64,000 bases of DNA, taken from the IMG/VR virus record IMGVR_UViG_3300045988_123906; one strand, 5' to 3'. Shown here piece by piece: positions 28,426 through 60,519 of the stretch. This DNA comes from a virus. Made by a program: the position numbers and the translations under genes. The stretch's first letter is position 1. Each line of letters begins with the position of its first letter. Below the pieces are notes generated by a model, which was not told where the DNA came from, did not search any database, and saw nothing but the letters and a program-made list of their open reading frames with translations.

Positions 28426-28463
28426 CCGGGCGCTTGGTAGTACCGGGGGAGACGTAACTACCA
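28426..28463 (+). ncRNA. pseudoknot motif copy 1
   Basis: CCGG-GCGCT-[TGGTAGT]-A-CCGG-GGGAGACGTA-[ACTACCA]. The stem is 7 bp. The 5' CCGG pairs with the loop CCGG. It lies 59 nt upstream of ATG 28522. Confidence 0.6.
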
Positions 28464-28521
28464 CCAACGGCAAAACGCCGTGTCCGATATACACCAACTG
28501 AGAAAACAAGAGGTAATAACT

Positions 28522-29373
28522 ATGCTGAAAGTTTATGCTGACTACGATGCAATCGCCAAGGCTGGCAAGCTGAACGAGCTGACCATCCCCGAGCTGGTGA
28601 AGTTCCTGAACGAGCAGAAAACTGTTCTGACCGCTGAGCAGTCTCAGAACGTCACCACCACGCTCAACAAGGCTGTTGAGAACAACAACAAGGCCGCTTG
28701 CGACAACAAGTGCGCTGAGTTCTGCGCCATGGAACGTTCTGAAATGTGGCGTTCCTACGCTCCGAACCCCTACTACATGGGTATCAAGATTACCACTGAC
28801 CCCAAGAGCGGTACTCTGTCCACCCAAGATGCCAAGATGCTCATCAAGTTCAAGGCACTGGAGAAGTATTACCAGACCCTGAACGCTGTCGAGACCAACG
28901 ACAAAGGGGAGCCTATGCCCAACAAGAGCGTAACTCTCTGCCGTGATGGTCACTATGAGAAACTGGTTATGCTGTTCAACGGTATGCTTTCTGAAGAGAC
29001 CGCAAGCGAGCTTGGTGCTGACAAACTGACCCGTAGCGCCAAGGTGGAAGAAACCCTCAAAGATATGGGGCTGGATTGCTTTGTCGGTCATGTCAACAAG
29101 GGCAAGCGCCTTGCTCAGCTCCAGGCTATCTGGAACGCCATGCTTCCTGAAGAGCTGGCAGCGGCCTGCACTGCGCTGTCCTGCGATATTAAGTATCTCA
29201 AGATTGCGGCCAATCGGGCAAAACAGGGCTCTGTCAAGGGTCTCGGTGATAAGGCCATGATTGACGAGATTGTTGTCACTATCTCCAAGGGCCTCTCTTT
29301 CGATGGCAAGACACGTTCTTCCAAGTACGACTTTGCAAGCAAGAGCAAGTTCTTTGCCAAAGCCGAGCAGTAA
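28522..29373 (+). CDS. hypothetical protein (first gene of the plus arm, strongly codon-biased)
   Basis: ATG follows an AAGAGG RBS. 283 aa with a TAA stop. The long antisense ORF 28399..29478 is a shadow. Confidence 0.7.
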   Translation: MLKVYADYDAIAKAGKLNELTIPELVKFLNEQKTVLTAEQSQNVTTTLNKAVENNNKAACDNKCAEFCAMERSEMWRSYAPNPYYMGIKITTDPKSGTLSTQDAKMLIKFKALEKYYQTLNAVETNDKGEPMPNKSVTLCRDGHYEKLVMLFNGMLSEETASELGADKLTRSAKVEETLKDMGLDCFVGHVNKGKRLAQLQAIWNAMLPEELAAACTALSCDIKYLKIAANRAKQGSVKGLGDKAMIDEIVVTISKGLSFDGKTRSSKYDFASKSKFFAKAEQ

Positions 29374-29496
29374 CACGCAATAGTCGGATACCCTTTCGGG
29401 GTCGCACCGTTCAAAGCGGCCCCTTTCCAGCTCCGCAATAGGGGCGTAGCGCCTTAGAGTGTGGCGCATTGTAGACACTCAGAAAAGAGGTTCACT

Positions 29497-30069
29497 ATGG
29501 ATTGTCCTTACATCATTCGTGAGAACATTGGCTTCGGCCGTGTTCGTGAGCATGGTTACTATCAGCTCGATGAGATGGCCTATGACCTGACCCACGACTT
29601 TGCAAACGCAGATGTCGAGGTCATCACTCGCACTCTGTACAACGTCACCATGGAGAGCGGCGAAGAGCTTTCCCAACTGGATGACGACACGGTGTTCAAG
29701 ATGTTGAGTGCCGGTCTGCCTGTCAAGTACATTGAGAACGCAAGGGATGGGTACATCATGTACTCTCGTCCTGAGAGCAAGCCAGCTGTCGAGGTTAAGA
29801 GAGTCGGCGGTATCACTCGTGCAAGCGCAAGTCGTGAACAGTACGATGATGCAATCATTATCCCCATGGCAAAAGAGTGGGCGGTTCTTGACCGTGCAGA
29901 CATTGGCGACCATTACCGCGTTATGGAATTCAAAGACAACGCCATCAATATGTTTGAACAGAAGACCGAACGTAAATGGTGCAATCGTCCGTTCTATGAT
30001 GAAGTCCGCCTGTATCACAATGGGATGCTTGTGCGGCTTTCTGTAAACGGACACGAGTTCATTTTTTAA
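29497..30069 (+). CDS. hypothetical protein
   Basis: ATG 29497 follows AAAGAGG. 190 aa. Confidence 0.65.
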   Translation: MDCPYIIRENIGFGRVREHGYYQLDEMAYDLTHDFANADVEVITRTLYNVTMESGEELSQLDDDTVFKMLSAGLPVKYIENARDGYIMYSRPESKPAVEVKRVGGITRASASREQYDDAIIIPMAKEWAVLDRADIGDHYRVMEFKDNAINMFEQKTERKWCNRPFYDEVRLYHNGMLVRLSVNGHEFIF

Positions 30070-30189
30070 CATCGTCGTTTTCGTCCCGGGCATGACGTTA
30101 AACTACCTACCCCTACAATCGGAACGCCTTGACGTGGCGCAGGGGCTTTAAACTAAGAGTCCGAAAGAAAGAGAAAGGAGCTATCTTTG

Positions 30190-30783
30190 ATGTACAAGGA
30201 CAAAAACGGAATAGTCATTCAGTGTGTCAACCGCAAGGGTATGACGTACAACGGATGCAAAGTGCCGTACATGGGATTGTATGGCACTTTTGGCCACTAT
30301 GAATTTGTCGCAGAGCCGCGTTTTAACCCTCAGACGAAAGAAATGCGACTCAAGCATCGTGATATGAAAACGAAAACCAGATGGGACGATATGCCCAGCA
30401 AGGAAATCGTTTCGCATATCATCGATGCAGCACGAGTCAAGTGTGTCAAACTTTACAAGTGGGAAACCAAAATGGTAAACCCAGACCGGGATGAAATGAA
30501 AAAAGATTTCGAGATTTGGCGCAAAGAAGCATCCAATCCCGACTGCATTCGTCGTAAAAAATTCAAAATGAAATACCGTCAATCGTCCATGAGTGGTCAT
30601 GGATATTCTGAACTTAGCTGTACTCTTTATGGTGAATCCATTGAGATGAACGGAAAGCAGAAAAAATTGAATCGCTCTATGCAGACATATATGGACGGTA
30701 CCGGAATGGGTTCACGTTTCGATAATAGTGACCGTAGACCACTTGAACCGCAATTTCCAGTTAAATCTGGTAAACGCAAGTAA
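30190..30783 (+). CDS. hypothetical basic protein
   Basis: ATG 30190 follows AAAGGAG. 197 aa. Confidence 0.65.
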   Translation: MYKDKNGIVIQCVNRKGMTYNGCKVPYMGLYGTFGHYEFVAEPRFNPQTKEMRLKHRDMKTKTRWDDMPSKEIVSHIIDAARVKCVKLYKWETKMVNPDRDEMKKDFEIWRKEASNPDCIRRKKFKMKYRQSSMSGHGYSELSCTLYGESIEMNGKQKKLNRSMQTYMDGTGMGSRFDNSDRRPLEPQFPVKSGKRK

Positions 30784-31035
30784 TTATTTATTGTTCCTAT
30801 GATTCCATTGTCCATCTGGGCCAATTTTGGAATCAGAATTTAAGCCAAGATTTGAATTCAAACAAGCTATTTTGTCTGAATTTTTAAGTTCTTTCTTTGA
30901 AAATTTTGTTTTGATAAAGATACCCTCACGCTTGTTTAGGGCACGTCTTTTTCGGCACAAATGTTTATAACAAAGTCCATCCTGAAAAACAGGTTCATTA
31001 CATTTTGGCTTAGAACAAGTTAATTTTGGCTTCAA
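30784..31035 (-). CDS. orphan opposite-strand zinc-binding protein (C-x4-C-x9-C-x2-H)
   Basis: TTG start 7 nt after AGGAGG. Contains CSKPKCNEPVFQDGLCYKHLCRKRR, a pattern I recognise from N-termini of phage HNH-type proteins. AT-rich. Confidence 0.5.
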   Translation of the reverse strand: MKPKLTCSKPKCNEPVFQDGLCYKHLCRKRRALNKREGIFIKTKFSKKELKNSDKIACLNSNLGLNSDSKIGPDGQWNHRNNK

Positions 31036-31156
31036 AGTTATCGCCTCCTATTGGTATTATAAACGAAAACAATTCTATAATCAATTAGCGTACTCGTCAC
31101 ACCAAAAATGTGGCGTTTTCTTTTTACCTCTTTTCTCTGCTCCGCAAGGAGCGATA

Positions 31157-31194
31157 CTGGGCGATTTACGGTACCAGGGCAGACGTAACCGTAA
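31157..31194 (+). ncRNA. pseudoknot motif copy 2
   Basis: CTGG-GCGAT-[TTACGGT]-A-CCAG-GGCAGACGTA-[ACCGTAA]. The 5' CTGG pairs with the loop CCAG. It lies 37 nt upstream of ATG 31231. Confidence 0.6.
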
Positions 31195-31230
31195 CCACAA
31201 CCAAACAAAAATTGAAAGGAGCTTAGCAAA

Positions 31231-31419
31231 ATGAAATTCGTCAGAATCAACGGCGAAAACCACGCCGGTTACGCTCTGCTTGATATCGTCGAGCACAAAA
31301 CCACGAGCATGACTGTTGCAGAGCTGATGGAAGCTCTGTCCAAGTGCAGCCCGGACGCATACGTTACGTTCGGCAATAATTACGATGATTATGTCATCGA
31401 AACCGTAAACCAGATTTGA
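31231..31419 (+). CDS. hypothetical protein
   Basis: 62-aa ORF with an AAAGGAG RBS. Confidence 0.6.
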   Translation: MKFVRINGENHAGYALLDIVEHKTTSMTVAELMEALSKCSPDAYVTFGNNYDDYVIETVNQI

Positions 31420-31444
31420 GTATCAAACGAAAAGGAGAATCATC

Positions 31445-34159: not shown

Positions 34160-34371
34160 GCGGCACGCAGTAATACATAAACGCAAAAAAGTGAAAGAGG
34201 TAATAAAATGCTGTACTATCGTACCAAAAATGAAGCCAACAACAAGCCCATGTATATGGGAAAGAGGCGGGACCGCAGATGATATAATCTATGAAATTTT
34301 GGTGTGATTCAAAATAATGCTTTGCAGTGGCGCTCTGGTAAAAATCGGAGCAAAAAACTGCGGAGCCCATG

Positions 34372-34409
34372 TCGGGCGACTGGTGGTACCGAGGCAGACG
34401 TAACCACAT
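34372..34409 (+). ncRNA. pseudoknot motif copy 3
   Basis: TCGG-GCGAC-TG[GTGGT]-A-CCGA-GGCAGACGTA-[ACCAC]AT. The 5' TCGG pairs with the loop CCGA. It lies 96 nt upstream of ATG 34505. Confidence 0.55.
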
Positions 34410-34504
34410 CCAATACAATAACATAATAAAATGTGCAAAAACGCGTGCCAATTCAATTATAGACTGCACGAAAAATTGCACAAACAGGAAAGGAAAACGC
34501 GGTC

Positions 34505-34807
34505 ATGGATATCTATATTGTCATGCAGAACGTCAAAGTCAATGATTCTGAATTTAATAGATGGCGCGACAATGGTACTTGTCCACTATCTGCTCATCGT
34601 AGTTTTGACGTGGCATTTGATACTATCTTCAAAGAATATTGTTCTATCAGAAAGCATAAAAACGTTTCGGATGTGAATTACAAAGACGGCGATGATGCTA
34701 GTCTTGAGTATACTTTTACAGACCCTATGTTTGGAGTTCAATACAAATTCGAACAGTGGGTTAGTTGTATTGAGTTAAAAGACGAGGAGGCTCTGCAGCA
34801 TGACTGA
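34505..34807 (+). CDS. hypothetical protein
   Basis: 100-aa ORF. Confidence 0.6.
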   Translation: MDIYIVMQNVKVNDSEFNRWRDNGTCPLSAHRSFDVAFDTIFKEYCSIRKHKNVSDVNYKDGDDASLEYTFTDPMFGVQYKFEQWVSCIELKDEEALQHD

Positions 34808-38418: not shown

Positions 38419-38681
38419 GCACGTTTAGGCCAAGCCGAACGGAACGAATTGTTAGAGTGAGATACCCCCACCCGTGGCTGCCACTGGAGGACCGAGGAGC
38501 TCAGCAGGTGACCCTACAGGGAGGAACTCACGGTACTTACGGTAGAGCCCAAATAGAAATACAGCGATGATGCGTCACTCCGAAATCCCGAACTGCGCTC
38601 GCAGCTCAACCGCAGCTCATCAACGCTGCCGGCTGCAGCGATCGCATGTGAGGCACAGGACTCCACAGATATTTAGATCTC
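38419..38681 (+). ncRNA. repeated noncoding element A
   Basis: The 5' box is GCACGTTTAGGCCAAGCCGAACGGAACGAATTGTTAGAG and the 3' box is ATTTAGATCTC. It has a GC-rich structured interior and no convincing ORF. Confidence 0.45.
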
Positions 38682-38815: not shown

Positions 38816-39058
38816 GCACGTTTAGGCCAAGCCGAACGGAACGAATTGTTAGACTGAGGGGACACCCCCGAGGAAGGCGGAAGACGCGTCGACTGCAGGT
38901 ACCAGACATCGCTGGCCACACCGAACGGTGCCATCAGGGGGTCAAATGAAACTTAAAACACCCCAACCGACGCATCCAACAACCAAATTTGGGCCACAAC
39001 CCCTGGTTCATGAAAGATCTCCATCTCCAGCTAGTAGCTTCAGACAGATTTAGATCAC
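38816..39058 (+). ncRNA. repeated noncoding element B
   Basis: Its 5' box matches that of A over 37 nt. This is followed by a GGGG-ACA-CCCC hairpin. The 3' box is ATTTAGATCAC. Confidence 0.45.
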
Positions 39059-40687: not shown

Positions 40688-40766
40688 CCGGGTGTGGCGA
40701 AGTTGGTATCGCGCTAGGTTTGGGACCTAGAGATTTTCGCCCGTTCGAGTCGGGTCACCCGGACCA
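40688..40766 (+). tRNA. tRNA-Pro (anticodon TGG)
   Basis: Cloverleaf by eye: acceptor CCGGGTG/CACCCGG, D arm GCGA-AGTTGGTA-TCGC, anticodon arm CTAGG-TTTGGGA-CCTAG, T arm GCCCG-TTCGAGT-CGGGT, encoded CCA. The variable region is unusually long at about 8 nt. Confidence 0.65.
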
Positions 40767-40789
40767 CAGCATAGGGCTTTATCCTTTCT

Positions 40790-41319
40790 CCCTGTGCAAA
40801 AAAAGCGAAGTTTTTTCTCTTTCACTTTTCCTTTTTCTTCGCTCGTGGCTGAAAATGCCGGGCAGGTACGATAATCCTGCTTTGATATGGAGCTGATGGT
40901 CGTACAACAGTTCGATTCTGTTGGGCTCCAGCTAGGTTCGATGCAGCGGCGTAGTGTAGTACAAAGCTGCTGGGGTGGCGCAATTCCACCGTGGGTGATC
41001 ATACTCCCCCTCTGACACACCCATAACGCTCTGACCGAAAATAATATCCATGATGCAACGGGAGTAGCTACCCGCCACAGTGGATGTGCATGGCTCTATT
41101 ATGAGTAGGCGAATTTGGCACTGCCTGCGAAAGTGGCATAGATGCTCGGTGCCCAGAGTATCGGAGAGTGATTTAAAAGGGCAGCCTTTGAGGATGGACA
41201 CCATAAGAGACCAATTCGCTTATGTGTTGTATCCGCTGACGCGACTGAGTATTGCGCAAACTTTGTAAGCCGCTTGCTCCTCGCCGATGCCGTTACATGG
41301 TTAAATCCTCCTCTCTTAT
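40790..41319 (+). ncRNA. candidate large structured noncoding region between tRNAs (class unknown)
   Basis: About 530 nt with no credible ORF. It contains an acceptor+T-arm minihelix (GGAGCTG...AACAG-TTCGATT-CTGTT-GGGCTCCA, about 40891-40933). It also has nested helices such as GGCAC-TGCC-TGCGAAAG-TGGCA...GTGCC (41117-41153). Confidence 0.3.
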
Positions 41320-41410: not shown

Positions 41411-41443
41411 TTTTTAGTAACATTTTGAAAGAAGGTATGAATC

Positions 41444-41698: not shown

Positions 41699-41704
41699 AT
41701 CAAA

Positions 41705-47376: not shown

Positions 47377-48354
47377 ATGCAGCCGGTTAAGATGAATGAC
47401 GAACTGATCCAGGGAATTTTGCAGGAGTTCTATGCACAGGCTTCTGCGTTGGGTAATCTGCAGGCGGATAAGTTCTCCTTTAACAAGAATTTTTCCAAGC
47501 CTGCCAAGGACGCAGTCGAGGTGAATTTCACTCTGGAAGCTTATCACGAGATGTGTGCCCTGATCGATCACTTCAGTACCGAGGTCGCCTGGCACGGTCT
47601 GGTGAATCGCATTGATAAGACTCACTTCCAAATCACCAAGATCCTGGTTTATCCGCAGCAGGTCACGGGCGCAACAGTGAATACGGACCAGGAAAAGTAT
47701 ACGACCTGGCTGTATGAGCTGGACGATGAATCCTTTAATACGCTGCGGTTCCAGGGCCACAGTCATGTGAACATGAGCACTTCTCCCAGCGGTGTGGATA
47801 TGCAGAATCAGTGGGATCTCATTGATACTCTGAGCTCTGAGGATTACTACGTCTTTATGATCTGGAACAAGCGGCGGGAGTATAACGTCCGTGTTGTGGA
47901 CATGGCGGACAATGTCATCTACAGCGGCGATGATGTCAAGGTGACGATTGGAGAGGCCGATACGAAAGGGTTTCTCGAACAGGCGGAAGCGCTCGTCCAA
48001 AAGCCGGTCACAACCACATACAGCGGCTACAACAATGGCTACAGCGGCAACTACAATGGTGCAGCTTACTCCGGCAACTACAGCGCGGGTACAGCAGCTT
48101 ATCAGGGAGGCGCGTTCGTTGGTAACACAAGCTCCGCAGCCGCGTCCACGAAAACAAAAGCAGAAACGAAACCGGCAGCCACGACGAACCCGGCGCTGAA
48201 AACTGTCACGGGTGGAGCCGCCCCTAAGATCGATTCAGCCAAGAGCAAGGGAAGCGAATCCAATCTGATGAAGTATTATCAGGAGAATCCGAACGACCTG
48301 ATGAACAATTGGAATTCGAGCTGCTATCCCTACGCTGACGCATTCCAGGACTAA
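47377..48354 (+). CDS. JAB/MPN (JAMM) metalloprotease with Tyr/Gly/Asn-rich C-terminal region
   Basis: The JAMM motif H-x-H-x7-S-x2-D is present as HSHVNMSTSPSGVD, with an upstream Glu (EVAWHG). The C-terminus is low complexity (YSGYNNGYSGNYNGAAYSGNYSAG). Confidence 0.7.
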   Translation: MQPVKMNDELIQGILQEFYAQASALGNLQADKFSFNKNFSKPAKDAVEVNFTLEAYHEMCALIDHFSTEVAWHGLVNRIDKTHFQITKILVYPQQVTGATVNTDQEKYTTWLYELDDESFNTLRFQGHSHVNMSTSPSGVDMQNQWDLIDTLSSEDYYVFMIWNKRREYNVRVVDMADNVIYSGDDVKVTIGEADTKGFLEQAEALVQKPVTTTYSGYNNGYSGNYNGAAYSGNYSAGTAAYQGGAFVGNTSSAAASTKTKAETKPAATTNPALKTVTGGAAPKIDSAKSKGSESNLMKYYQENPNDLMNNWNSSCYPYADAFQD

Positions 48355-48368
48355 GAAAGGAAACAACA

Positions 48369-49049
48369 ATGGATCTGAGCAAAATCGAAATGGTGTTTGA
48401 CCCTGCGTCTGTTAAGGGTCGCATTCATATCATCGGCTGTGGTTCGGTCGGCTCTACTGTGGCTGAACTGCTGGCACGATACGGTCTGACCAAGTTCACT
48501 CTGTGGGATATGGACTTTGTCGAACCCAAGAATATCGTCAACCAGATGTTCTTCCAGCAGGATATCGCCCATCCCAAGGTGGAAGCTGTGGGGAACATTC
48601 TGTGCAATGTGAATCCTGATATCAAAGAGGATCTGGTTCTGATGCCCAATGGCTGGCAGGGCGAAACCGTCAAGGGTTATGTGTTCCTGGCCGTGGACAG
48701 CATCGAGATCCGCAAGCAGTTCCTGGAGAAGAATAAGTACAATCCTGAGCTGCTCGGTGTGTTCGATATCCGCACTGGCCTGTATGATGCACAGTGCTGG
48801 TCGGCCGATTGGAAGGATCGCAAGCAGATCGACAATCTGAAGAACTCCATGAACTTCACTCACGAGGAAGCAAAGGTAAGTACGCCGGTGTCTGCATGTG
48901 GCATTGTTCAGGGTGTTGCACCGACCGTTCGTTTCATCTGCTGTCTGGCGGTTACGAACTTTATCAATTTCGTGGGAGGCAACCAGCTGAAGAAGCAGAT
49001 CGTTGCAACCCCGTTCATTCTGGGTGAAGAGAGCGTCATGGCGTTCTGA
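48369..49049 (+). CDS. ThiF/E1-like adenylyltransferase
   Basis: Rossmann motif IIGCGSVGS followed by WDMDFVEPKN (the E1 D-x-D-x-V-x3-N pattern). 226 aa. Confidence 0.7.
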   Translation: MDLSKIEMVFDPASVKGRIHIIGCGSVGSTVAELLARYGLTKFTLWDMDFVEPKNIVNQMFFQQDIAHPKVEAVGNILCNVNPDIKEDLVLMPNGWQGETVKGYVFLAVDSIEIRKQFLEKNKYNPELLGVFDIRTGLYDAQCWSADWKDRKQIDNLKNSMNFTHEEAKVSTPVSACGIVQGVAPTVRFICCLAVTNFINFVGGNQLKKQIVATPFILGEESVMAF

Positions 49050-49097
49050 TAAAATCGTAAATAAAAAAATCGTGATGAATAGTTGTTTTTATAAACA

Positions 49098-49329
49098 GCG
49101 CACTTAGGCCAAGCCAAGTGTATCGAATTGTTAAGAAGAGGGGGTCCTCCCCCTGTGGCATCAACATTGCAAAACTAAACGCGTGCCGCCGGATGACGGT
49201 GCTACCACAGGGTTCGAAACGATCTTCCTGGGTCACCCGAATGCGGTTATATAGCCAATTTCAGCATCCAATCATGATCGGGACCTCCTACAGCATGCAT
49301 TATAGCCTCAAGAAACCCATTTAGATCAC
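49098..49329 (+). ncRNA. repeated noncoding element C (immediately upstream of the RT gene)
   Basis: The 5' box is GCGCACTTAGGCCAAGCC..TCGAATTGTTAAGA. This is followed by a GGGGG-TCCT-CCCCC hairpin. The 3' box ATTTAGATCAC lies 23 nt before the RT ATG. Confidence 0.45.
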
Positions 49330-49352
49330 GATGAAATCATAAAGGAGAAACA

Positions 49353-50585
49353 ATGTACATTACATATCTGAATCCTCCTAAGACTCGGCAGATCACTTTT
49401 GATGAGATCCTTGCCGGTGTCCAGAATGTAGAAGCACTGCACTATGGCGGCAGCAACACATCTACAATGACCGTGTGCCGCAATGACTTAACCGCCAAAC
49501 TTCGCGCTATCACAAATGTTCCTGAGATGATCGAGAAGTTGGTGGACTACAACGTGAAATATGCGACGCTTGAATCCAGCGATATCCCGAGTCACTATTC
49601 TCACTTTGAGATTCCAAAGAAATCTGGTGGCTGGCGACCCATTGATGCGCCAGATGAAACTCTTTCTGATGCACTGATCGAGCTGCGGGAACTGCTGAAG
49701 AGCTTTATGATCGCAGATTATCACACGAATGCTTTCGCATATATTCCCAATCGCAGCTTTATCGATGCGGTCCGTAAGCATCAGGCAGGTCACAATAAAA
49801 CCGTCGTTGATGAGGCGACCGGCATGAAAAAGGTCGTCAATTATCAGAATCATTGGGCGGTCAAGTTCGACTTCCATGGTTTCTTTCCCAGTACGACACC
49901 GGATTTTCTGCTCGGCATGATGAGTGTGATCTATCCATTTGCTCTGATCATGCGGGATGCACATGGCCGAGATGAACTGGCAAAGGCGGTCAACCTGTGC
50001 TTTCTTCGCAACGGCCTGCCGCAGGGAACTCCCATCAGTCCGTGGCTTACCAATGTGATGATGATTCCGTTTGACCACTGTATCACTCGCAAGCTGTGCT
50101 ATGGCTACAAAGCAAAGGACGGCATCGATCGCGAGTTTACTTTCACACGATATGCAGATGATATCCTCATCAGCTGTTATCATCACTTTGACCCGATGGA
50201 AATTCAGCAGATCATCATTGATGCGTTGAACTTCTTTCATGCGCCGTTTACTCTGAACGAAACGAAAACGCATTACGGCAACCGGCACTCCAGCAAGAAC
50301 TGGTGTCTCGGCTTGATGTGGAATAAGGACAATCAGATCACGGTTGGCTGGCGCAATCTTAAAATGTTCCGTTCGGCTATGACGAACTATATCGATACAA
50401 AGCAGCATGGCAGGACCTGGGAGCTGGAAGATCTGCAAAAGTTCAATGGCAAGCTCAACTATTATCACATGGTCGAGCCTGAGGTGATCGACGAGCTGGT
50501 TCGTCGTTACAATGCAAAGTTCGGCACTGATATTATTGCGATGCTCAAAGAAGATCTTCGTCCCAAAGAGGGCGTTGTTGCATAA
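49353..50585 (+). CDS. reverse transcriptase (retron/UG/Abi-like, not DGR-like)
   Basis: RT motifs present: IPKKSGGWRPIDAP, KFDFHGFFPS, GLPQGTPISPWLTN, YADDILIS and NETKT. 410 aa with no endonuclease domain seen. Confidence 0.85.
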   Translation: MYITYLNPPKTRQITFDEILAGVQNVEALHYGGSNTSTMTVCRNDLTAKLRAITNVPEMIEKLVDYNVKYATLESSDIPSHYSHFEIPKKSGGWRPIDAPDETLSDALIELRELLKSFMIADYHTNAFAYIPNRSFIDAVRKHQAGHNKTVVDEATGMKKVVNYQNHWAVKFDFHGFFPSTTPDFLLGMMSVIYPFALIMRDAHGRDELAKAVNLCFLRNGLPQGTPISPWLTNVMMIPFDHCITRKLCYGYKAKDGIDREFTFTRYADDILISCYHHFDPMEIQQIIIDALNFFHAPFTLNETKTHYGNRHSSKNWCLGLMWNKDNQITVGWRNLKMFRSAMTNYIDTKQHGRTWELEDLQKFNGKLNYYHMVEPEVIDELVRRYNAKFGTDIIAMLKEDLRPKEGVVA

Positions 50586-55709: not shown

Positions 55710-56537
55710 ATGGTTAAAGCAAATCATTATAAAATCAGTTCTTTTCCTGACGGTACTCCGCTGATCAAGAAGGATCTGACCATCAATTATCTCAACGTGA
55801 TCAGTATCGTCTGGACGTTTGAATCTATGGCCGAGCTTCCAACGGTCATTATGATCGCAAAGGATGCAAAGGATAACGGTGCAGAAGTTGAGCTGTTCAT
55901 GCCGTATATCCCGAACGCTCGTATGGATCGCGCCTATCACGACGAAGATGTGTTCACCCTCAAGTGGTTCGCTGACGAGATCAATCGGTGCGGATTCAGC
56001 TGCGTTACCGTGTTTGACCCTCACAGTGATGTGGCCCCGGCATTGATCAATCGGTGCGAAGTACATACTCCGATTCGTGAAATCTGTCAGGTAATCGAGG
56101 AGAGCAAGCCAGATGTGATCTATTTTCCGGATACCGGCGCAATGAAACGATATGAAGGGACTGTTCACTGGGCACTGGATCGAGCAAAGTGCAGTGCCTA
56201 TATCATCCATGGCGATAAAAAGCGGGACTGGGCAACGGGCAAAATTCTCGGTTTGGATGTTGTTGGTGAAGTGAAGCCTGGTGAAAAGGTTTTGATGATC
56301 GATGATATCTGTTCTTACGGTGGCACTATGTTCTATTCGGCCAAGAAGCTGAAGGAACTGGGTGCTGGTGATATCGATATGTATGTCAGCCACTGCGAAA
56401 ACAGCATTCTGGATTCTGAGCGTGGCCATCTGTTTGATGATCCAGAACTGATTCACAAGGTTTATACCACAGACAGTATCTTCACCGGCCATCACGACAA
56501 GATCACTGTTTTAGAGCGTCATTGGGGCGAGGACTGA
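55710..56537 (+). CDS. ribose-phosphate pyrophosphokinase (Prs) homolog; candidate ADPR-pyrophosphate synthetase (Adps) of an NARP1-type pathway
   Basis: PRPP-binding loop VLMIDDICSYGGT. N-terminus is Prs-like (SSFPDGTP). It is adjacent to the NAMPT homolog. Confidence 0.65.
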   Translation: MVKANHYKISSFPDGTPLIKKDLTINYLNVISIVWTFESMAELPTVIMIAKDAKDNGAEVELFMPYIPNARMDRAYHDEDVFTLKWFADEINRCGFSCVTVFDPHSDVAPALINRCEVHTPIREICQVIEESKPDVIYFPDTGAMKRYEGTVHWALDRAKCSAYIIHGDKKRDWATGKILGLDVVGEVKPGEKVLMIDDICSYGGTMFYSAKKLKELGAGDIDMYVSHCENSILDSERGHLFDDPELIHKVYTTDSIFTGHHDKITVLERHWGED

Positions 56538-56538
56538 T

Positions 56539-56796
56539 ATGAAGTATGCAAAAGGTGAAATCCTTAGTGCATATCAGCGCTTAACGAAAAGTATCAAATA
56601 TGGAGATGCATACTGGTCTGAAAAAGCAATGATAAGTGATGTTCTGAGTGATTACTTCAATCGGATCGAGAGCAAGAAAGTTGTAATCGATCCAAAATAT
56701 GAAAGCTATAGATGTCCAAAGTGCAATACAACGTTAATTGGTCAATATGATCACTATTGCGGACAATGTGGTCAGAAATTGGACTGGAGGATTTGA
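56539..56796 (+). CDS. small zinc-ribbon protein
   Basis: Contains CPKCNT...CGQCGQ. 85 aa. Confidence 0.55.
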   Translation: MKYAKGEILSAYQRLTKSIKYGDAYWSEKAMISDVLSDYFNRIESKKVVIDPKYESYRCPKCNTTLIGQYDHYCGQCGQKLDWRI

Positions 56797-56797
56797 A

Positions 56798-58276
56798 ATG
56801 ATCAATATCAACCCGATGCTGCTGTGCGATTTCTACAAGACGACTCACAGTAAGCAGTTTCCGGCCGGCACTACCAAGCTGGTCAGTTATTTTACTCCAC
56901 GCATGAGCCGACTGGATGGCGTGGATGAAGTCGTTGTGTTCGGCATTCAGGCGTTCTGCAAGGATTATCTGGTACGATATTTCAACGACAATTTCTTCGA
57001 CGAACCAAAGTGTATTGTAGTTCCTCAGTACAAGCGTGTCCTGGATGCGACCATTGGTAAGGATGCTTACGATCTAAGCAAGATTGCAGCGCTACATGAT
57101 CTGGGATATCTTCCTGTTGAAATCAAGGCACTGCCAGAAGGTACTCGTTGCCCAATCCATGTGCCGTTTCTGGAGATGAGCAATACGCATCCTGATTTCG
57201 CATGGGTTCCGCAGTTCCTCGAATCTTTTATGAGTTCTGAGCTGTGGCATCCAATGATTTCTGCAACGGTCGGAACTCTGTATCGCGATATTGTGGACAA
57301 GTATTACGATGAAACCGTTGAGGATGGCGTGCCTCATGCTCGTGCTTTGGGTGATTTCAGTTTCCGTGGTCAGGAGTGTATGCAGTCGGCAGTTAAGTCA
57401 AGCGCCGGTTGGTGTCTGAGTTTTCTGAATACGGCTACTGTCCCTGCGATTCCGTATCTGGAAGAAATGTATCGCTGCAATTGCGAAGAAGAGCCCGTTG
57501 CGTTTGGCGCTGTCAGTACCGAGCATAGTGTGATGTGTTCTAACTTCGCTGTCGATGGCGACGAGATCACTTTCATCCGCCGGGCGCTGACGGAGCTGTA
57601 TCCCAATATGAGCTTCAGTATGGTGTCTGATTCCTACGACTACTGGAATCTGGTCGATAATATCCTGCCGCAGCTCAAGGATGAAATCATGGCTCATAAT
57701 GGTACGCTGCTGATCCGTGGCGACTCTGGCGAACCGGTCGAAATCGTCACGCAGACGGTCTATCATCTGTGGGATATCTTCGGCGGCACAGTCAACAGTA
57801 AGGGCTACAAGGTGCTCGATCCTCATGTGAAGGCTCTGTACGGCGATTCCATCACTGTGCAGCGCTGCGAAAAGATTTATGCCGAACTCAAAGCACACGG
57901 TTTCGCCTGCAACAATGTCAGCCTGGGTGTTGGCTCTTTCTCTATGCAGTGCATCGAGCAGAATGGCCAGTTGAAGCCGTTCACTCGCGATACGTTCGGC
58001 ATGGCAGTCAAGGCAACTTATGGCGTGGTCAACGGCAAAGAGATTCAGATCTTCAAGGACCCCAAGACCGACACCGATCATTTTAAGAAGAGTCTGAAGG
58101 GTATGTGTTATGTCACTAAGGATGATTCTGGAAAGCTGGTTTGTACTGATGGTCTGATGGATCACGCTGCTCATTCGGATGGTAACCTGTTGCAAACCGT
58201 ATTCCGTAATGGCGCGATGGTCAAGGAGTACAGTTTAAAGGAAGTTCGTGAGCGACTGTGGGGAGGGAAGTTCTAA
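56798..58276 (+). CDS. nicotinamide phosphoribosyltransferase (NAMPT/NadV) homolog; candidate Namat of an NARP1-type pathway
   Basis: The N-terminus NPMLLCDFYKTTH is typical of the NAMPT/NAPRT family. About 492 aa from ATG 56798. Confidence 0.7.
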   Translation: MININPMLLCDFYKTTHSKQFPAGTTKLVSYFTPRMSRLDGVDEVVVFGIQAFCKDYLVRYFNDNFFDEPKCIVVPQYKRVLDATIGKDAYDLSKIAALHDLGYLPVEIKALPEGTRCPIHVPFLEMSNTHPDFAWVPQFLESFMSSELWHPMISATVGTLYRDIVDKYYDETVEDGVPHARALGDFSFRGQECMQSAVKSSAGWCLSFLNTATVPAIPYLEEMYRCNCEEEPVAFGAVSTEHSVMCSNFAVDGDEITFIRRALTELYPNMSFSMVSDSYDYWNLVDNILPQLKDEIMAHNGTLLIRGDSGEPVEIVTQTVYHLWDIFGGTVNSKGYKVLDPHVKALYGDSITVQRCEKIYAELKAHGFACNNVSLGVGSFSMQCIEQNGQLKPFTRDTFGMAVKATYGVVNGKEIQIFKDPKTDTDHFKKSLKGMCYVTKDDSGKLVCTDGLMDHAAHSDGNLLQTVFRNGAMVKEYSLKEVRERLWGGKF

Positions 58277-58749
58277 TGGCTGTTGTAATCAAAGAAGGTA
58301 ATGTGTTTGATTCTGACGCTAAGATCATCTGTCATCAGGTGAATTGTCAGGGCGTTATGGGGTCTGGTGTTGCCAAAGAAGTTCGTGAGCGGTATCCAAA
58401 GGTGTACGAGAAATATCACACTTACTGCGAAAGCAACAAGGATTGTCCTGAACGAATGCTGGGTGTCGCTCAGATGGTTCCAGTTGATGAAAAAGGTTCT
58501 CGATGGATCGTCAATTGCTTCGGTCAGAACAGTTATGGATATGACGGAAAGCAGTACACGTCTGTTGGCGCACTGTTTGAAGCATTCAAAGAAGTGGCCA
58601 AAATCGCCAAGGCATCAGGAGTTAAAGTAGCTATGCCGTATGGAATCGGCTGTGTTCGTGGCGGCGCAAAATGGCTGCTTGTGAAAGAAATTATCGATTT
58701 TACATTTAAAGACGTTGACGTGGAACTGTGGAAACTGGAGGGTAAATAA
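58276..58749 (+). CDS. macro domain protein (ADP-ribose binding/hydrolase type)
   Basis: Contains KEGNVFDSDAKIICHQVNCQGVMGSGVAKEV, typical of macro domains. TAATG overlap upstream. Confidence 0.65.
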   Translation: MAVVIKEGNVFDSDAKIICHQVNCQGVMGSGVAKEVRERYPKVYEKYHTYCESNKDCPERMLGVAQMVPVDEKGSRWIVNCFGQNSYGYDGKQYTSVGALFEAFKEVAKIAKASGVKVAMPYGIGCVRGGAKWLLVKEIIDFTFKDVDVELWKLEGK

Positions 58750-58750
58750 T

Positions 58751-59515
58751 ATGCGCAAGTATGAATTTGACGCAGCAAAAACCAAGGATGAAATCGTCGA
58801 GTGGATTCGGAACTATTTCCGCAAGAATGGCCCCGACTGTAATGCGGTGATCGGTATCTCTGGTGGCAAGGATTCCAGTATCGTGGCTGCTCTGTGCTGT
58901 GAAGCGCTGGGCAATGGCCGTGTAATCGGTGTTTTGATGCCCCAGGGTGCTCAGAGTGATATCGATGTGGCACGGGAACTGGTCGCCCATCTGGGTATCA
59001 AGTCCTTCGAGATCAATATTGCGGAAACTGTGAATGCGCTGCTGGCCAATGGACGGGCAGCTGGTCTGTGCGATTCCAAGCAGGCTCGTGTGAATCTGCC
59101 GGCACGAATTCGTATGGCGACTTTGTTCATGGTGAGTCAGAGTATGAATGGGCGAGTAGCTAACACTTGCAACGCTTCAGAAAATTTCGTCGGATGGCAA
59201 ACTGTGGGAGGGGATGGATTTGGTCAGTTCAGTCCTCTCAGTAAGCTGACTGTCACTGAGGTAAAAGCCGTTGGTCGTGAGTTGGGTCTTCCTGAAAAGT
59301 TCATCGAGAAAGCGCCTGCAGATGGACTGACTGGCAAAACCGACGAGGATAATTTCGGCTTTACCTATGACTTCCTCGACAAGTACATTCGCACTGGTGA
59401 TTTCGGCGGTGACACTGCAACTGCAGCCAAGATCGATCGAATGCACGATGCGAACGCATTCAAACTGTTGCCGATGCCTGTGTATAAATCTAATTTTTAC
59501 AAGGTTGAGTGGTAA
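58751..59515 (+). CDS. nadE: NH3-dependent NAD+ synthetase
   Basis: The PP-loop is GISGGKDSS. At 254 aa it is the size of NadE. Confidence 0.75.
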   Translation: MRKYEFDAAKTKDEIVEWIRNYFRKNGPDCNAVIGISGGKDSSIVAALCCEALGNGRVIGVLMPQGAQSDIDVARELVAHLGIKSFEINIAETVNALLANGRAAGLCDSKQARVNLPARIRMATLFMVSQSMNGRVANTCNASENFVGWQTVGGDGFGQFSPLSKLTVTEVKAVGRELGLPEKFIEKAPADGLTGKTDEDNFGFTYDFLDKYIRTGDFGGDTATAAKIDRMHDANAFKLLPMPVYKSNFYKVEW

Positions 59516-59527
59516 GGGAGAGTTTTT

Positions 59528-60094
59528 ATGGGAAAAGAAAAAGTTGATGTTCTGATCGTTGTCGATATGCAGAACGATTTTGTCACCGGTCCGCTGGGTA
59601 CTCCTGAAGCGCAGGCCATTGTGCCGAAGGTTGTGGAGAAGATCAAGAACTGGAAGGGTGAAATTCTGTATACCAGAGATACTCACCATGAAAACTATCT
59701 CGAAACGCAGGAAGGCAAGCATCTTCCAGTGAAGCATTGTTTGTTCGGGACAAGTGGCTGGCAGCTTGTGAATGAAGTTGATGAAACGATTTCTGACGAG
59801 CAATGGTGTGAAGATAACCCGATTTATGATAAACACACTTTTGGATCGGCTGGGCTGGCGGATGATCTTGTATTTTTCAACAACAAAGAAAACTGCGAAA
59901 TCACTTCCATCACGTTGGTCGGCCTCTGCACTGATATCTGCGTTATCTCGAATGCGCTTCTGCTCAAGGCCGCACTTCCCGAAGTCCCTATCATTGTGGA
60001 TGCAAGTTGCTGTGCCGGTGTGACTCCTGAGTCCCACAAGAATGCACTGGCAGCTATGAAGATGTGCCAGATTGAGATCGTGAACGAGGAATAA
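59528..60094 (+). CDS. pncA: nicotinamidase / isochorismatase-family hydrolase
   Basis: Contains VVDMQNDF and LVGLCTDICV (catalytic Cys context). 188 aa. Confidence 0.7.
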   Translation: MGKEKVDVLIVVDMQNDFVTGPLGTPEAQAIVPKVVEKIKNWKGEILYTRDTHHENYLETQEGKHLPVKHCLFGTSGWQLVNEVDETISDEQWCEDNPIYDKHTFGSAGLADDLVFFNNKENCEITSITLVGLCTDICVISNALLLKAALPEVPIIVDASCCAGVTPESHKNALAAMKMCQIEIVNEE

Positions 60095-60095
60095 A

Positions 60096-60284
60096 ATGCA
60101 CTACGTTAATAGCGATATTATTTTGGACGCAGACGAAGCAAGACGGTTTCAGTATCTTCTAAGGCATCCAAACGTAGAGGAAATACAAAGGAAGTTAAAG
60201 GCTTGTAACGATGCTCTCGCTGAAATGAATTATCGAGAGAACGAAGACGGGACCGCTTCTTTTGATATTGATCTTGAGGTGTAA
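60096..60284 (+). CDS. hypothetical protein
   Basis: 62-aa ORF. Confidence 0.5.
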   Translation: MHYVNSDIILDADEARRFQYLLRHPNVEEIQRKLKACNDALAEMNYRENEDGTASFDIDLEV

Positions 60285-60287
60285 ATC

Positions 60288-60443
60288 ATGCGCTGCCGAG
60301 TAGATGTGAAAGTCGAAGGATACATTCTGGTTGAAGCAAACGATCCTTTTGAAGCTCATAAAATCGCAGACATGCACCAAGAAGATATCGTTTGGGACAA
60401 CTGGATGACATCCACAAGCTGTAAAAAGATTCAAGGAGCTTAA
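60288..60443 (+). CDS. small hypothetical protein (51 aa)
   Basis: Product begins MRCRVDVKVEGYILVEANDPFEAHKIADMH... Below the track cutoff. Confidence 0.4.
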   Translation: MRCRVDVKVEGYILVEANDPFEAHKIADMHQEDIVWDNWMTSTSCKKIQGA

Positions 60444-60481
60444 TATGGAAGAGATTATTATTTTCGCTTAAAGTCTGAATG

Positions 60482-60519
60482 CCAGGTGATTGGCGGTACT
60501 GGGGCAGACATAACCGCCG
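60482..60519 (+). ncRNA. pseudoknot motif copy 4
   Basis: CCAG-GTGAT-[TGGCGGT]-A-CTGG-GGCAGACATA-[ACCGCCG]. The 5' CCAG pairs with the loop CTGG. It lies 23 nt upstream of ATG 60542. Confidence 0.6.

What the first reader, a model, noticed from the sequence alone, without database searches (positions are those of the whole stretch)
28426..60519. Four copies of a ~38-nt H-type pseudoknot motif with compensatory changes in both helices
The copies lie at 28426-28463, 31157-31194, 34372-34409 and 60482-60519. All are in plus-strand leaders, 23-96 nt before a start codon.

The layout is a 5' tetranucleotide, the linker G-Y-G-M-Y, a 5-7-bp stem, a 15-nt loop (A + tetranucleotide + GG(C/G)AGAC(G/A)TA), and the return strand of the stem.

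- The outer stem covaries: TGGTAGT/ACTACCA, TTACGGT/ACCGTAA, GTGGT/ACCAC and TGGCGGT/ACCGCCG.
- The 5' tetranucleotide is always complementary to loop positions 2-5: CCGG/CCGG, CTGG/CCAG, TCGG/CCGA and CCAG/CTGG.

Covariation in two helices is strong evidence for a folded RNA, or possibly single-stranded DNA. From memory, the architecture (5' strand pairing into an ACC-GG-containing loop of a 7-bp hairpin, with a CAG-GAC-like 3' loop half) recalls the guanidine-III (ykkC-III) riboswitch, but the sequence differs. The downstream genes are phage hypotheticals and an HD hydrolase. Alternatives are a transcript-start or antitermination element, or a recognition element for the phage-encoded RNA polymerase.
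Basis: seen in the sequence. Interest (0 to 1): 0.85.

Follow-up and report, generated by a model that had tools for sequence, protein, structure and literature searches.

The report
New pseudoknot RNA in phage leaders
Four copies of a ~40-base sequence in this SPbeta-like gut phage fold into a compact, previously uncatalogued RNA pseudoknot that sits just upstream of many unrelated small early genes, and it most likely marks and protects the start of their messages rather than sensing guanidine.

Summary
The four copies lie exactly where stated, and a structure-only scan finds no others (0.06 expected by chance).

I found the motif in 211 related loci, in 195 distinct contexts, from human-gut phage contigs.

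- **Structure:** Among 58 distinct 38-nt cores, 96% of cells pair. All 4 pairs of the short helix and 4 of 7 pairs of the long helix show compensatory changes.
- **Third contact:** L1 position 2 pairs with the purine three bases before the 3' strand (U-A 29, C-G 27, other 2). This gives an ABCABC order of helices.
- **Folded strand:** G.U outnumbers A.C 17 to 3 among distinct helix types, so the sense strand folds.
- **Position:** The motif ends 20-65 nt before an SD plus start codon in 168 of 183 contexts. It precedes at least 31 unrelated small gene families, and both flanks are mosaic.
- **Missing features:** There is no expression platform and no enrichment of sigma-A-type promoters upstream.
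- **Known families:** No Rfam family matches. The layout resembles the guanidine-III riboswitch, but that family's defining ACGR core with an unpaired C6 is not met.

Best reading, at about 0.35: a constitutive leader module that defines or protects the 5' end of the downstream mRNA. The rivals are a protein-binding element, a new ribozyme, a ligand sensor, or a DNA-level signal.

The parts
28423..28466 (+). Motif copy 1 with its conserved flanks. A(-3)AG 28423-25; S1a CCGG 28426-29; L1 GCGCT 28430-34; S2a TGGTAGT 28435-41; A 28442; S1b CCGG 28443-46; L3 GGGAGACGTA 28447-56; S2b ACTACCA 28457-63; CCA 28464-66.
   Evidence: (57.5 bits). Orthologs are in L067, L111, L115, L180, L212 and L221.
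31154..31197 (+). Motif copy 2. ATA, CTGG, GCGAT, TTACGGT, A, CCAG, GGCAGACGTA, ACCGTAA, CCA.
   Evidence: (64.7 bits).
34369..34412 (+). Motif copy 3. ATG, TCGG, GCGAC, TGGTGGT, A, CCGA, GGCAGACGTA, ACCACAT, CCA. S2 has only 5 pairs here.
   Evidence: 61.5 bits. Orthologs carry TCGG/CCGA or CCGG/CCGG, a double compensatory change.
60479..60522 (+). Motif copy 4. ATG, CCAG, GTGAT, TGGCGGT, A, CTGG, GGCAGACATA, ACCGCCG, CCA.
   Evidence: (69.5 bits).
28467..28481 (+). Optional short hairpin directly after the CCA of copy 1: ACGGC-AAAAC-GCCGT.
   Evidence: A hairpin of this kind follows the CCA in 77 of 163 distinct contexts against 6 in shuffled controls. GAAA is the commonest loop.
28522..29373 (+). 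Gene downstream of copy 1: 283 aa, no Pfam hit.
31231..31419 (+). Gene downstream of copy 2: 62 aa, no Pfam hit.
34505..34807 (+). Gene downstream of copy 3: 100 aa, no Pfam hit.
60542..61108 (+). Gene downstream of copy 4: an HD-domain protein.
   Evidence: (PF01966, 5.7e-06).
34280..34288 (+). Extended -10 promoter-like site TGATATAAT, about 85 nt upstream of copy 3. It would place copy 3 inside a host-RNA-polymerase 5' UTR.
   Evidence: The site is conserved in orthologs L036, L068 and L090.
31095..31125 (+). Terminator-like hairpin plus T-run, about 30 nt upstream of copy 2.
   Evidence: The T-rich box GGCGTTTTCTTTTTACCTC is conserved in orthologs.
60445..60471 (+). Conserved 8-codon mini-ORF (MEEIIIFA*) with a strong SD, ending 10 nt before copy 4.

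Best explanation
The element is a cis-acting RNA that forms on the sense transcript. It is a compact pseudoknot of about 44 nt.

**Structure (shown)**
- Positions 1-4 pair with 18-21 (S1).
- Positions 10/11-16 pair with 32-37/38 (S2).
- Positions 5-7 contact 28-30, with 6-29 the firm pair.
- An invariant unpaired GGNAGA closes the loop.
- An A lies three bases upstream, and a CCA lies directly downstream.

**Proposed function (inferred)**
The element has no alternative fold or expression platform. It sits at a fixed short distance upstream of the ribosome-binding sites of many unrelated small early or accessory genes, whether or not a promoter is nearby. It most likely acts constitutively as a portable leader module.

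In the polycistronic early transcripts of this SPbeta-like Clostridia phage, the module would mark a processing point at or near its sharp 5' boundary. The tightly knotted fold would then cap the 5' end of the downstream message. This would shield it from 5'-end-dependent decay by RNase J or RNase Y in Firmicutes. Each small gene would keep its own stable, translatable mRNA.

Shown: the fold, the strand, the position and the generic gene context. Inferred: the processing and protection step.
For: **Structure**
- Among 58 distinct cores, 96.1% of cells pair. Nine of 14 pairs have changes on both sides. Slid controls give 24-50%. Earlier sets agree.
- A structure-blind mutual-information scan ranks 3-19, 13-35, 2-20, 6-29, 11-37 and 12-36 on top.
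- The tertiary pair 6-29 is Watson-Crick in 58 of 60 cores; 0 of 10,000 shuffles reach this. Both states occur in 13 and 18 different S1/S2 backgrounds.

**Strand**
- There are 17 G.U against 3 A.C among distinct helix types.

**Position**
- The motif's 3' end lies 20-65 nt before an SD plus start codon in 168 of 183 contexts, with a median of 42 nt. The distance to the previous ORF end ranges from 10 to 643 nt.
- The commonest type starts 10-13 nt after a stop codon, so it is intercistronic.

**Generic use**
- At least 31 unrelated downstream families occur. The same motif type precedes different genes, and the same gene follows different motif types.

**No switch**
- No terminator or SD-sequestering partner follows the motif.
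- An A-rich spacer follows it, and in 47% of contexts a small, often GAAA-capped hairpin.
- Sigma-A-like promoters are not enriched upstream: 27 of 177 contexts against a 17% background.

**Boundary and host**
- Conservation drops sharply beyond A(-3) and beyond the CCA.
- The host lineage is Clostridia, which are Firmicutes. That Firmicutes use RNase J/Y-type decay is my own knowledge, not a tool result.

**Precedent**
- Flaviviral xrRNAs also stall bacterial RNase J1, by my recollection of PMC5760640; only listed that paper, and I did not open it.
- From my own knowledge: repeated structured processing and stabiliser sites occur in T7 and SP82 early mRNAs.
Against: - No transcript ends were observed, so nothing shows cleavage or exonuclease stalling.
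- A simple stabiliser would not need about 20 invariant unpaired or tertiary nucleotides. That degree of conservation fits specific recognition by a protein, a ligand or catalysis equally well.
- Nested folding energies are unremarkable, with z near 0. The pseudoknot cannot be scored with the tools at hand.
- The conserved A(-3) means the functional unit extends upstream of the first helix, so the 5' end is not simply at position 1.
- Copies 1 and 2 lie just after terminator-like hairpins with no visible promoter between. A promoter-like role would also explain this.
Confidence: 0.35

Rival explanations
1. The pseudoknot is an RNA binding site for a phage or host protein, or for the transcribing RNA polymerase. 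It would act like nut/put antitermination sites or a translational activator site, and would switch whole sets of early genes on or off together.
For: - Several copies per genome lie ahead of diverse early genes.
- The unpaired GGNAGA, A17, A31 and CCA are invariant, which suits sequence-specific recognition.
- The fold is static, with no expression platform.
- Copy 2 lies next to a terminator-like hairpin.
Against: - No candidate partner was identified.
- The motif's 3' edge is a median 42 nt from the start codon, outside a ribosome footprint. Direct occlusion of the ribosome-binding site is therefore unlikely.
- Antitermination sites are usually few and promoter-proximal. Here most copies have no promoter within 200 nt.
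Confidence: 0.2
2. The motif is a new class of small self-cleaving ribozyme that cuts the polycistronic early RNA next to each gene.
For: - The fold is compact and multi-helix, with about 20 conserved core nucleotides in about 40 nt.
- The location is intergenic, the orientation is sense-only, and the boundaries are sharp.
- The same phage region carries RAGATH-5 (29384-29436). A relative carries a twister ribozyme about 390 nt from a motif copy.
Against: - No known ribozyme model matches.
- No conserved dinucleotide stands out as a cleavage site.
- Association with ribozyme-rich contexts is only circumstantial. From memory, most RAGATH candidates did not cleave.
Confidence: 0.12
3. The motif is a ligand-sensing aptamer with a guanidine-III-like fold. 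It would couple early gene expression to a host metabolite or ion through RNA stability or Rho, rather than through a classical platform.
For: - The H-type pseudoknot has the same size and layout as the T. fusca guanidine-III aptamer. Shared strings are CCGG, CGA, GUAC, CAG(G)AC and A-C.
- Some family members even carry ACGA in L1.
- In both RNAs, the first nucleotides of L1 contact the last nucleotides of L3.
Against: - There is no ykkC-III hit at E<=10.
- Position 6, the ligand-contacting unpaired C in guanidine-III, is U in half of the copies and covaries as a Watson-Crick pair.
- The triplex-forming GGU of L1 is missing.
- At least 31 unrelated downstream gene families occur, none linked to guanidine.
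- There is no alternative pairing or terminator.
Confidence: 0.12
4. The motif is a DNA-level signal. Options are a promoter for a non-sigma-A polymerase (for example the YonO-like enzyme acting on folded single-stranded DNA), an operator like SPBRE, or a site for cassette recombination.
For: - The distance to start codons (22-65 nt) is promoter-like.
- Copies 1 and 2 follow terminator-like hairpins with no sigma-A promoter between.
- Both flanks are mosaic, and some recombinants have breakpoints inside the motif.
- SPBRE occupies the same niche in SPbeta.
- RdRP-like phage polymerases prefer single-stranded DNA.
Against: - Interleaved compensatory changes in three sets of pairs are not explained by duplex DNA recognition.
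- The 17:3 G.U versus A.C bias puts the fold on the sense strand, not the template strand.
- A 15-nt loop and a pseudoknot are poor candidates for cruciform extrusion.
- SPBRE is an unrelated AT-rich dyad.
- In SPbeta, YonO transcribes the late operon. Here that operon lies on the opposite strand and has no motif copy.
- Copy 3 lies downstream of a conserved extended -10 site.
Confidence: 0.07

Closest known systems
Guanidine-III riboswitch (ykkC-III, Rfam RF01763; T. fusca aptamer, PDB 5NWQ)
   Same: - Both are H-type pseudoknots of about 40 nt.
- Both have a 4-bp first helix; it is CCGG/CCGG in both T. fusca and copy 1.
- Both have a 6-7-bp second helix.
- L1 starts N-C-G-A. GUAC sits at the S2a/L2/S1b junction. 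CAG(G)AC lies in L3.
- In both, the start of L1 contacts the end of L3.
   Different: - The covariance model gives no match.
- L1 is 5 nt rather than 7, and lacks the triplex-forming GGU.
- L2 is 1 nt rather than 2-3.
- Position 5 is mostly G. Position 6 is C or U and is Watson-Crick paired, instead of an unpaired ligand-contacting C.
- There is no SD-linked platform.
- The motif occurs in several copies in phages, ahead of unrelated genes.
RNase III processing and stabiliser sites of phage early mRNAs (T7 R0.3-R1.3; SP82 sites in Bacillus)
   Same: Both are repeated, conserved, structured elements in leaders and intercistronic spacers of early operons. Both lie a few tens of nucleotides before start codons, are independent of gene identity, and lie at mosaic boundaries.
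   Different: The known sites are long double-stranded hairpins cut by RNase III. This element is a 4+7-bp pseudoknot with a third contact, and no nuclease has been identified for it. The comparison rests on my own knowledge, not on a tool result.
Exoribonuclease-resistant RNAs (xrRNAs) of flaviviruses and plant viruses
   Same: Both are small, protein-independent, multiply pseudoknotted folds. In both, the 5' strand pairs with both sides of a loop that a helix closes. Position in the RNA is what matters. Flaviviral xrRNAs also stall bacterial RNase J1 (my recollection of PMC5760640, which one search listed and I did not open).
   Different: There is no sequence or size similarity and no three-way-junction scaffold of the flaviviral type. 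The ring topology and the stalling are untested here. No phage or bacterial xrRNA turned up in the one literature search run; that search was not exhaustive.
RAGATH-5 RNA (RF02685)
   Same: RAGATH-5 is present in the same early region (29384-29436). Its layout is similar: a 5' CGG, then a hairpin whose loop begins A-CCG, then a CCA a few bases 3' of the stem. It also shares the phage and ribozyme-associated context.
   Different: The two share no detectable sequence or model similarity. The linkers and loop differ. RAGATH-5 occurs once per genome. A pseudoknot in RAGATH-5 was not tested.
tRNA-like acceptor pseudoknot (TYMV type)
   Same: Both have the topology S1a-L1-S2a-S1b-L3-S2b followed by (N)CCA. 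U10 is invariant while its partner N38 varies like a discriminator base.
   Different: The CCA here is internal, not a 3' end. There is no T-loop or elbow. L3 is long and conserved. The tRNA models do not hit it.
SPBRE, the MrpR operator of SPbeta
   Same: Both are repeated elements in intergenic regions ahead of early genes of an SPbeta-type genome, often after terminators.
   Different: SPBRE is an AT-rich duplex-DNA dyad, AAATACAAAWAATATGTATA. It shows no covariation and no similarity to this motif.

Membership tests
Guanidine-III riboswitch (ykkC-III, RF01763) | Match to the Rfam covariance model | tested here: not met
   No ykkC-III hit at E<=10 in short windows around copies 1, 2 and 4, or around an ACGA-containing variant. 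There was none at the gathering threshold either.
Guanidine-III riboswitch (ykkC-III, RF01763) | H-type pseudoknot of about 40 nt with a short P1 and a 6-7-bp P2 | tested here: met
   S1 is 4 bp and S2 is 6-7 bp. 96% of cells pair, with compensatory changes in 8 of the 11 S1/S2 pairs.
Guanidine-III riboswitch (ykkC-III, RF01763) | Conserved C6-G7 dimer flanked by conserved A residues, with C6 not Watson-Crick paired, plus conserved G17 (PMC7736828) | tested here: not met
   Position 5 is G in 46 of the 58 cores (from the pair types). Position 6 is U in 29 and C in 29, and pairs with position 29 (U-A 29, C-G 27, other 2).
Guanidine-III riboswitch (ykkC-III, RF01763) | Association with guanidine export or metabolism genes, and an SD-proximal platform | tested here: not met
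   At least 31 unrelated small hypothetical gene families lie downstream. The SD lies 10-45 nt beyond the motif, with no complementary partner.
Guanidine-III riboswitch (ykkC-III, RF01763) | Binds guanidinium | not testable with these tools
   This needs in-line probing or isothermal titration calorimetry.
Known self-cleaving ribozyme classes (hammerhead, twister, twister-sister, pistol, hatchet, HDV-like) and RAGATH-5 | Match to the family covariance model | tested here: not met
   No such hit falls on any motif copy. RAGATH-5 hits only 29384-29436.
Known self-cleaving ribozyme classes (hammerhead, twister, twister-sister, pistol, hatchet, HDV-like) and RAGATH-5 | Site-specific self-cleavage | not testable with these tools
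   This needs in vitro transcription and cleavage assays.
Exoribonuclease-resistant RNA (xrRNA) | Ring-like fold around the 5' strand, and stalling of a 5'-3' exonuclease without proteins | not testable with these tools
   The pairing order ABCABC is compatible with such a fold. The 3D topology and resistance to RNase J1 or Xrn1 need experiments or modelling.
tRNA-like structure / RNase P substrate | Acceptor-like helix followed by N-CCA | tested here: inconclusive
   CCA is present in 44 of 45 unique copies of the first set. N38 varies without covarying with the invariant U10. The helix stack is only 10-11 layers, and the CCA is internal.
tRNA-like structure / RNase P substrate | T-loop or elbow, or recognition by tRNA models | tested here: not met
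   The Rfam tRNA model hits only the seven tRNA genes at 40688-43621.
SPBRE / MrpR operator of SPbeta-type phages | AT-rich 15-bp dyad bound as duplex DNA | tested here: not met
   The SPBRE copies read from SPbeta share nothing with the motif. Covariation of intra-strand pairs is not expected for an operator.
Structured single-strand DNA promoter (N4 virion RNA polymerase type) | Hairpin formed on the template strand, recognised by the phage polymerase | tested here: not met
   There are 17 G.U against 3 A.C on the sense strand, which would be mismatches on the template strand. The loop of 15 nt plus a pseudoknot is unlike the 3-nt-loop hairpins of N4 (own knowledge).

The most novel reading that the evidence does not exclude
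The motif is the founding member of a new class of very small functional RNA of about 40 nt. It has a rare ABCABC (three mutually crossing contacts) pseudoknot topology, and SPbeta-like gut phages use it as a portable cassette. It would be one of three things: the first phage or bacterial exonuclease-blocking RNA (an xrRNA analogue acting on RNase J); a new self-cleaving ribozyme; or a guanidine-III-derived aptamer with a new ligand.
Probability: 0.35. Interest if true: 0.85.

Novelty: new variant of a known kind. Interest (0 to 1): 0.68.

Why it matters
If the fold is confirmed, it adds an uncatalogued, very small and densely structured RNA family, seen in 211 loci from human-gut metagenomes and virus collections.

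- It would show how a large group of temperate Clostridia phages organises expression of its fast-evolving small early genes. Many of these are probably host-takeover or anti-defence genes.
- It would give a 40-nt portable module for use in Firmicutes: an mRNA stabiliser, a processing site, a possible ribozyme or an aptamer scaffold.
- Its relation to the guanidine-III fold offers a test case for how a riboswitch-like architecture can be reused with the ligand pocket replaced by a base pair.

Tried and rejected
- **Rfam.** A gathering-threshold search of the whole window, and permissive scans of copies 1, 2 and 4, an ACGA variant and the 1.26-kb spacer, found no relevant family.
- **Protein-coding reading.** An ATG precedes most copies, and in copy 4 it is in frame with the HD gene. 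I rejected this because the commonest type reads ATG CTA GGT GAT TAG, and copies 1 and 2 lack the ATG.
- **Sigma-A promoter inside or just upstream.** The hexamers within the motif are poor. Upstream sites are no more frequent than background, 27 of 177 against 17%.
- **TACATA box upstream.** It is not enriched in the window: 6 found against 5.9 expected.
- **Intrinsic terminator or attenuator after the motif.** The hairpins there have no U-run.
- **SPBRE analogue.** The sequence is unrelated. The window's 273-aa integrase-family protein gave only weak matches to Xer and integrase chains, with no MrpR/YopR entry among the 8 PDB sequences matched.
- **attC-like recombination site.** The motif is too short, has a different structure, and is tied to start codons.
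- **Priming signal.** There are too few copies, and they are tied to genes.
- **Nested folding energy.** It is uninformative, with z near 0.
- **More distant YonO-phage relatives (56-58% identity).** No motif lies within 10 kb of their polymerase gene, but the gene order differs there, so this says little.
- **Literature.** Searches for the sequence strings and for RAGATH-5 found nothing useful.

Full report
**1. The observation**

| Copy | Sequence (S1a L1 S2a A S1b L3 S2b) | Coordinates |
|---|---|---|
| 1 | CCGG GCGCT TGGTAGT A CCGG GGGAGACGTA ACTACCA | 28426-28463 |
| 2 | CTGG GCGAT TTACGGT A CCAG GGCAGACGTA ACCGTAA | 31157-31194 |
| 3 | TCGG GCGAC TGGTGGT A CCGA GGCAGACGTA ACCACAT | 34372-34409 |
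| 4 | CCAG GTGAT TGGCGGT A CTGG GGCAGACATA ACCGCCG | 60482-60519 |

- A degenerate sequence pattern hits only these sites, against 0.63 expected.
- A descriptor that asks only for GGNRGA plus complementarity recovers copies 1, 2 and 4 and nothing else, against 0.055 expected. Copy 3, with 5 S2 pairs, falls below its S2 cut-off.
- The family is the top direct repeat of the window.
- Each copy is followed at once by CCA and preceded by A-N-N, mostly ATG.

**2. The genome around it**

- Genes at 1-27.1 kb are on the minus strand. They include a portal protein, a large terminase and a 748-aa ORF that matches Pfam RdRP (PF05183, 2.9e-13). This is a YonO-like two-barrel RNA polymerase.
- In more distant relatives, homologues of YonJ, YonG, terminase, YonD and YonB follow this polymerase gene. 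That is the late operon of Bacillus phage SPbeta. Prophage copies occur in Clostridia such as Anaerolentibacter and Gehongia.
- A 1.35-kb non-coding spacer (27165-28520) separates this block from a plus-strand block of small genes, tRNAs, a retron-type reverse transcriptase, an integrase-family gene and NAD-salvage genes. SPbeta has the same divergent layout.
- All four motif copies lie in the plus-strand (early or accessory) block. None lies in the late block.

**3. Relatives and structure**

About 95 of these came from 70-150-kb human-gut contigs and had 4/4 and 5-7/7 pairs. About 25 unrelated hits paired at chance level and serve as an internal negative control. A covariance model, protein-anchored loci and one metagenome scan added more divergent members. 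In all, 211 loci and 195 distinct contexts carry the motif. Only one hit was found in one genome per 185,579 bacterial and archaeal species. It is a 12-kb contig of a Peptococcaceae metagenome-assembled genome.

*Pair counts on 58 distinct 38-nt cores.*
- 96.1% of cells form standard pairs, against 24-50% when partners are slid.
- All four S1 pairs and four of seven S2 pairs have changes on both sides.
- The two S2 pairs next to the junction never vary.
- Earlier sets agree.
- Ten fully complementary S1 types occur, among them CCGG/CCGG, CTAG/CTAG, CCGT/ACGG, TTCG/CGAA and CCCA/TGGG. Fourteen fully complementary S2 types occur.

*Caveat.* Members of the large sets were selected partly by pairing in S1 and S2. 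The pattern-only scan and the structure-blind mutual-information scan are free of that bias. The top pairs of the blind scan are 3-19, 13-35, 2-20, 6-29, 11-37 and 12-36.

**4. A third contact**

- L1 position 2 (C or U) pairs with the purine three bases before S2b. The counts are U-A 29, C-G 27 and other 2.
- This pair is Watson-Crick in 58 of 60 cores, and 0 of 10,000 shuffles reach that value. Each state occurs in 13 or 18 different S1/S2 backgrounds. The contact was not used for selection.
- The two exceptions look like recombinants with a breakpoint inside the motif.
- The neighbouring contacts are mostly compatible. For 5-30: G.U 41, A-U 7, G-C 5, other 5. For 7-28: G-C 49, G.U 3, other 6.
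- The order of strands is therefore S1a, Ha, S2a, S1b, Hb, S2b, written ABCABC. From my own knowledge this is a rare pseudoknot topology.
- What stays unpaired and invariant is GGNAGA (22-27), A17, A31 and U10, whose partner N38 does not covary. A(-3) and the 3' CCA are also invariant.

**5. Which strand, and RNA or DNA**

Among distinct helix types there are 17 G.U pairs against 3 A.C. Transitions should give both equally if either strand could fold, so the sense strand is the folded one.

Copy 3 lies about 85 nt downstream of a perfect extended -10 site (TGATATAAT, 34280-34288) that is conserved in orthologs. The commonest type begins 10-13 nt after the stop codon of a conserved upstream gene. 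Both facts place the motif inside transcripts. Folding on sense-strand single-stranded DNA cannot be excluded formally, but nothing favours it.

**6. Context**

- The 3' end of the motif lies 20-65 nt before an SD-preceded start codon on the same strand in 168 of 183 contexts, with a median of 42 nt. The distance to the previous ORF end runs from 10 to 643 nt.
- Downstream genes fall into at least 31 unrelated families, mostly of 45-283 aa and without Pfam hits among those scanned. One motif type precedes different genes, and one gene family follows different motif types.
- Both flanks are mosaic among phages.
- Sigma-A-like promoters are no more frequent upstream than in random windows: 27 of 177 against 17%.
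- After the CCA comes an A-rich stretch (44% A). In 77 of 163 contexts a short hairpin also follows, most often with a GAAA loop, against 6 in shuffles. This hairpin has no U-run.
- Nothing can pair alternatively with the motif, so I see no expression platform.

**7. What it most likely does**

A static, densely structured RNA sits at a fixed short distance ahead of ribosome-binding sites of arbitrary genes. It does so within operons as well as in 5' UTRs. This fits a generic expression module better than a metabolite switch.

My best reading, at about 0.35, is an early-mRNA processing and 5'-end-protection module. Cleavage at or near the sharp 5' boundary would be carried out by a host RNase, or possibly by the RNA itself. 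The knotted fold would then cap the downstream message against 5'-end-dependent decay. That decay route is a major one in Firmicutes (RNase J and RNase Y; own knowledge).

Two precedents exist. One is the repeated RNase III and stabiliser sites of T7 and SP82 early RNAs (own knowledge). The other is that flaviviral xrRNAs also stall bacterial RNase J1 (my recollection of PMC5760640; only listed the paper). The processing and protection steps are inferred. No transcript ends were available.

Rivals:
- A binding site for a protein or the polymerase (0.2).
- A new self-cleaving ribozyme (0.12). RAGATH-5 lies 920 nt downstream of copy 1, and a twister ribozyme lies 390 nt from a copy in L050.
- A ligand sensor with a guanidine-III-like fold (0.12).
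- A DNA-level signal (0.07).

**8. Comparison with known families**

*Guanidine-III.* This is the closest architecture. The T. fusca aptamer (sequence) shares the following with the motif: helix lengths, CCGG/CCGG, N-C-G-A in L1, GUAC at the junction, CAG(G)AC in L3, and a contact between the first nucleotide of L1 and the end of L3.

Membership fails on four counts.
- The covariance model gives no hit.
- The defining ACGR core with an unpaired C6 is absent.
- The gene context does not fit.
- There is no expression platform.

The motif works on a similar fold, but where guanidine-III has its ligand-contacting C6 this motif has a Watson-Crick pair.

*SPBRE.* The repeated element that fills the same niche in SPbeta is an unrelated AT-rich duplex operator for MrpR.

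*Promoters on template-strand hairpins, as in N4.* The G.U bias argues against these.

*A tRNA-like, TYMV-type acceptor pseudoknot with CCA.* This remains an open resemblance.

**9. Verdict**

The motif is a new, phage-restricted RNA family that is absent from Rfam. It is best filed as a new variant of the H-type pseudoknot cis-acting RNAs, with a guanidine-III-like scaffold and an extra crossing contact. Its function is not established. The experiments listed under next steps would separate the five readings quickly.

Noticed in passing
window 29384-29436 (+): RAGATH-5 RNA (RF02685), 52.1 bits against a gathering score of 50. It lies in the spacer between the first two genes after motif copy 1 and is conserved at the same place in L067, L111, L115 and L207. 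Its layout loosely parallels the motif: a 5' CGG, a hairpin whose loop starts A-CCG, and a CCA 3' of the stem.
   Followed up: partly
L050 3466-3547 (-): A related phage carries a type-P5 twister ribozyme (48.7 bits) about 390 nt upstream of a copy-3-type motif. This phage group therefore places self-cleaving ribozymes in the same early region.
   Followed up: no
window 47377-50585 (+); repeats at 38419-38461, 38816-38858, 49098-49140: A retron-type reverse transcriptase (49353-50585; PADLOC RT_II-A 2.5e-37, Pfam RVT_1) sits next to a ThiF/E1-like gene (48369-49049) and a weakly JAB-like gene (47377-48354). A 43-nt repeat has three copies, the third just upstream of the reverse transcriptase, and may be part of its non-coding RNA.
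   Followed up: partly
window 19609-21855 (-): A YonO-like single-chain two-barrel RNA polymerase (Pfam RdRP, 2.9e-13). Database homologues are 810-860 aa, so the true start may lie upstream. Together with portal and terminase genes, it marks the phage as a distant SPbeta-like phage of gut Clostridia.
   Followed up: partly
window 27165-28520: A 1.35-kb non-coding spacer between the divergent gene blocks, with AT-rich and G-rich stretches. The box TTTTCTTT(T)A(TA)CCT recurs at about 27246, 27897 and 31116. Rfam gives no hit.
   Followed up: partly
window 60445-60471 (+) and 34209-34283 (+): A conserved 8-codon mini-ORF (MEEIIIF[AGS]*) with a strong SD ends 10 nt before copy 4. A 24-codon ORF ends in the extended -10 site upstream of copy 3. 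These may be leader peptides or remnants.
   Followed up: no
window 40688-43621 (+): A cluster of seven tRNA genes found by the Rfam tRNA model.
   Followed up: no
window 55710-59515 (+): An NAD-salvage set: a phosphoribosyltransferase-like gene (55710-56537), nicotinamide phosphoribosyltransferase (56738-58276) and NAD synthase (58715-59515).
   Followed up: no
L109, L341 and L016 (motif copies): These motif copies have a 5' half of one type and a 3' half of another. The result is mismatches at 6-29 and 13-35. This indicates recombination breakpoints inside the 38-nt element.
   Followed up: partly
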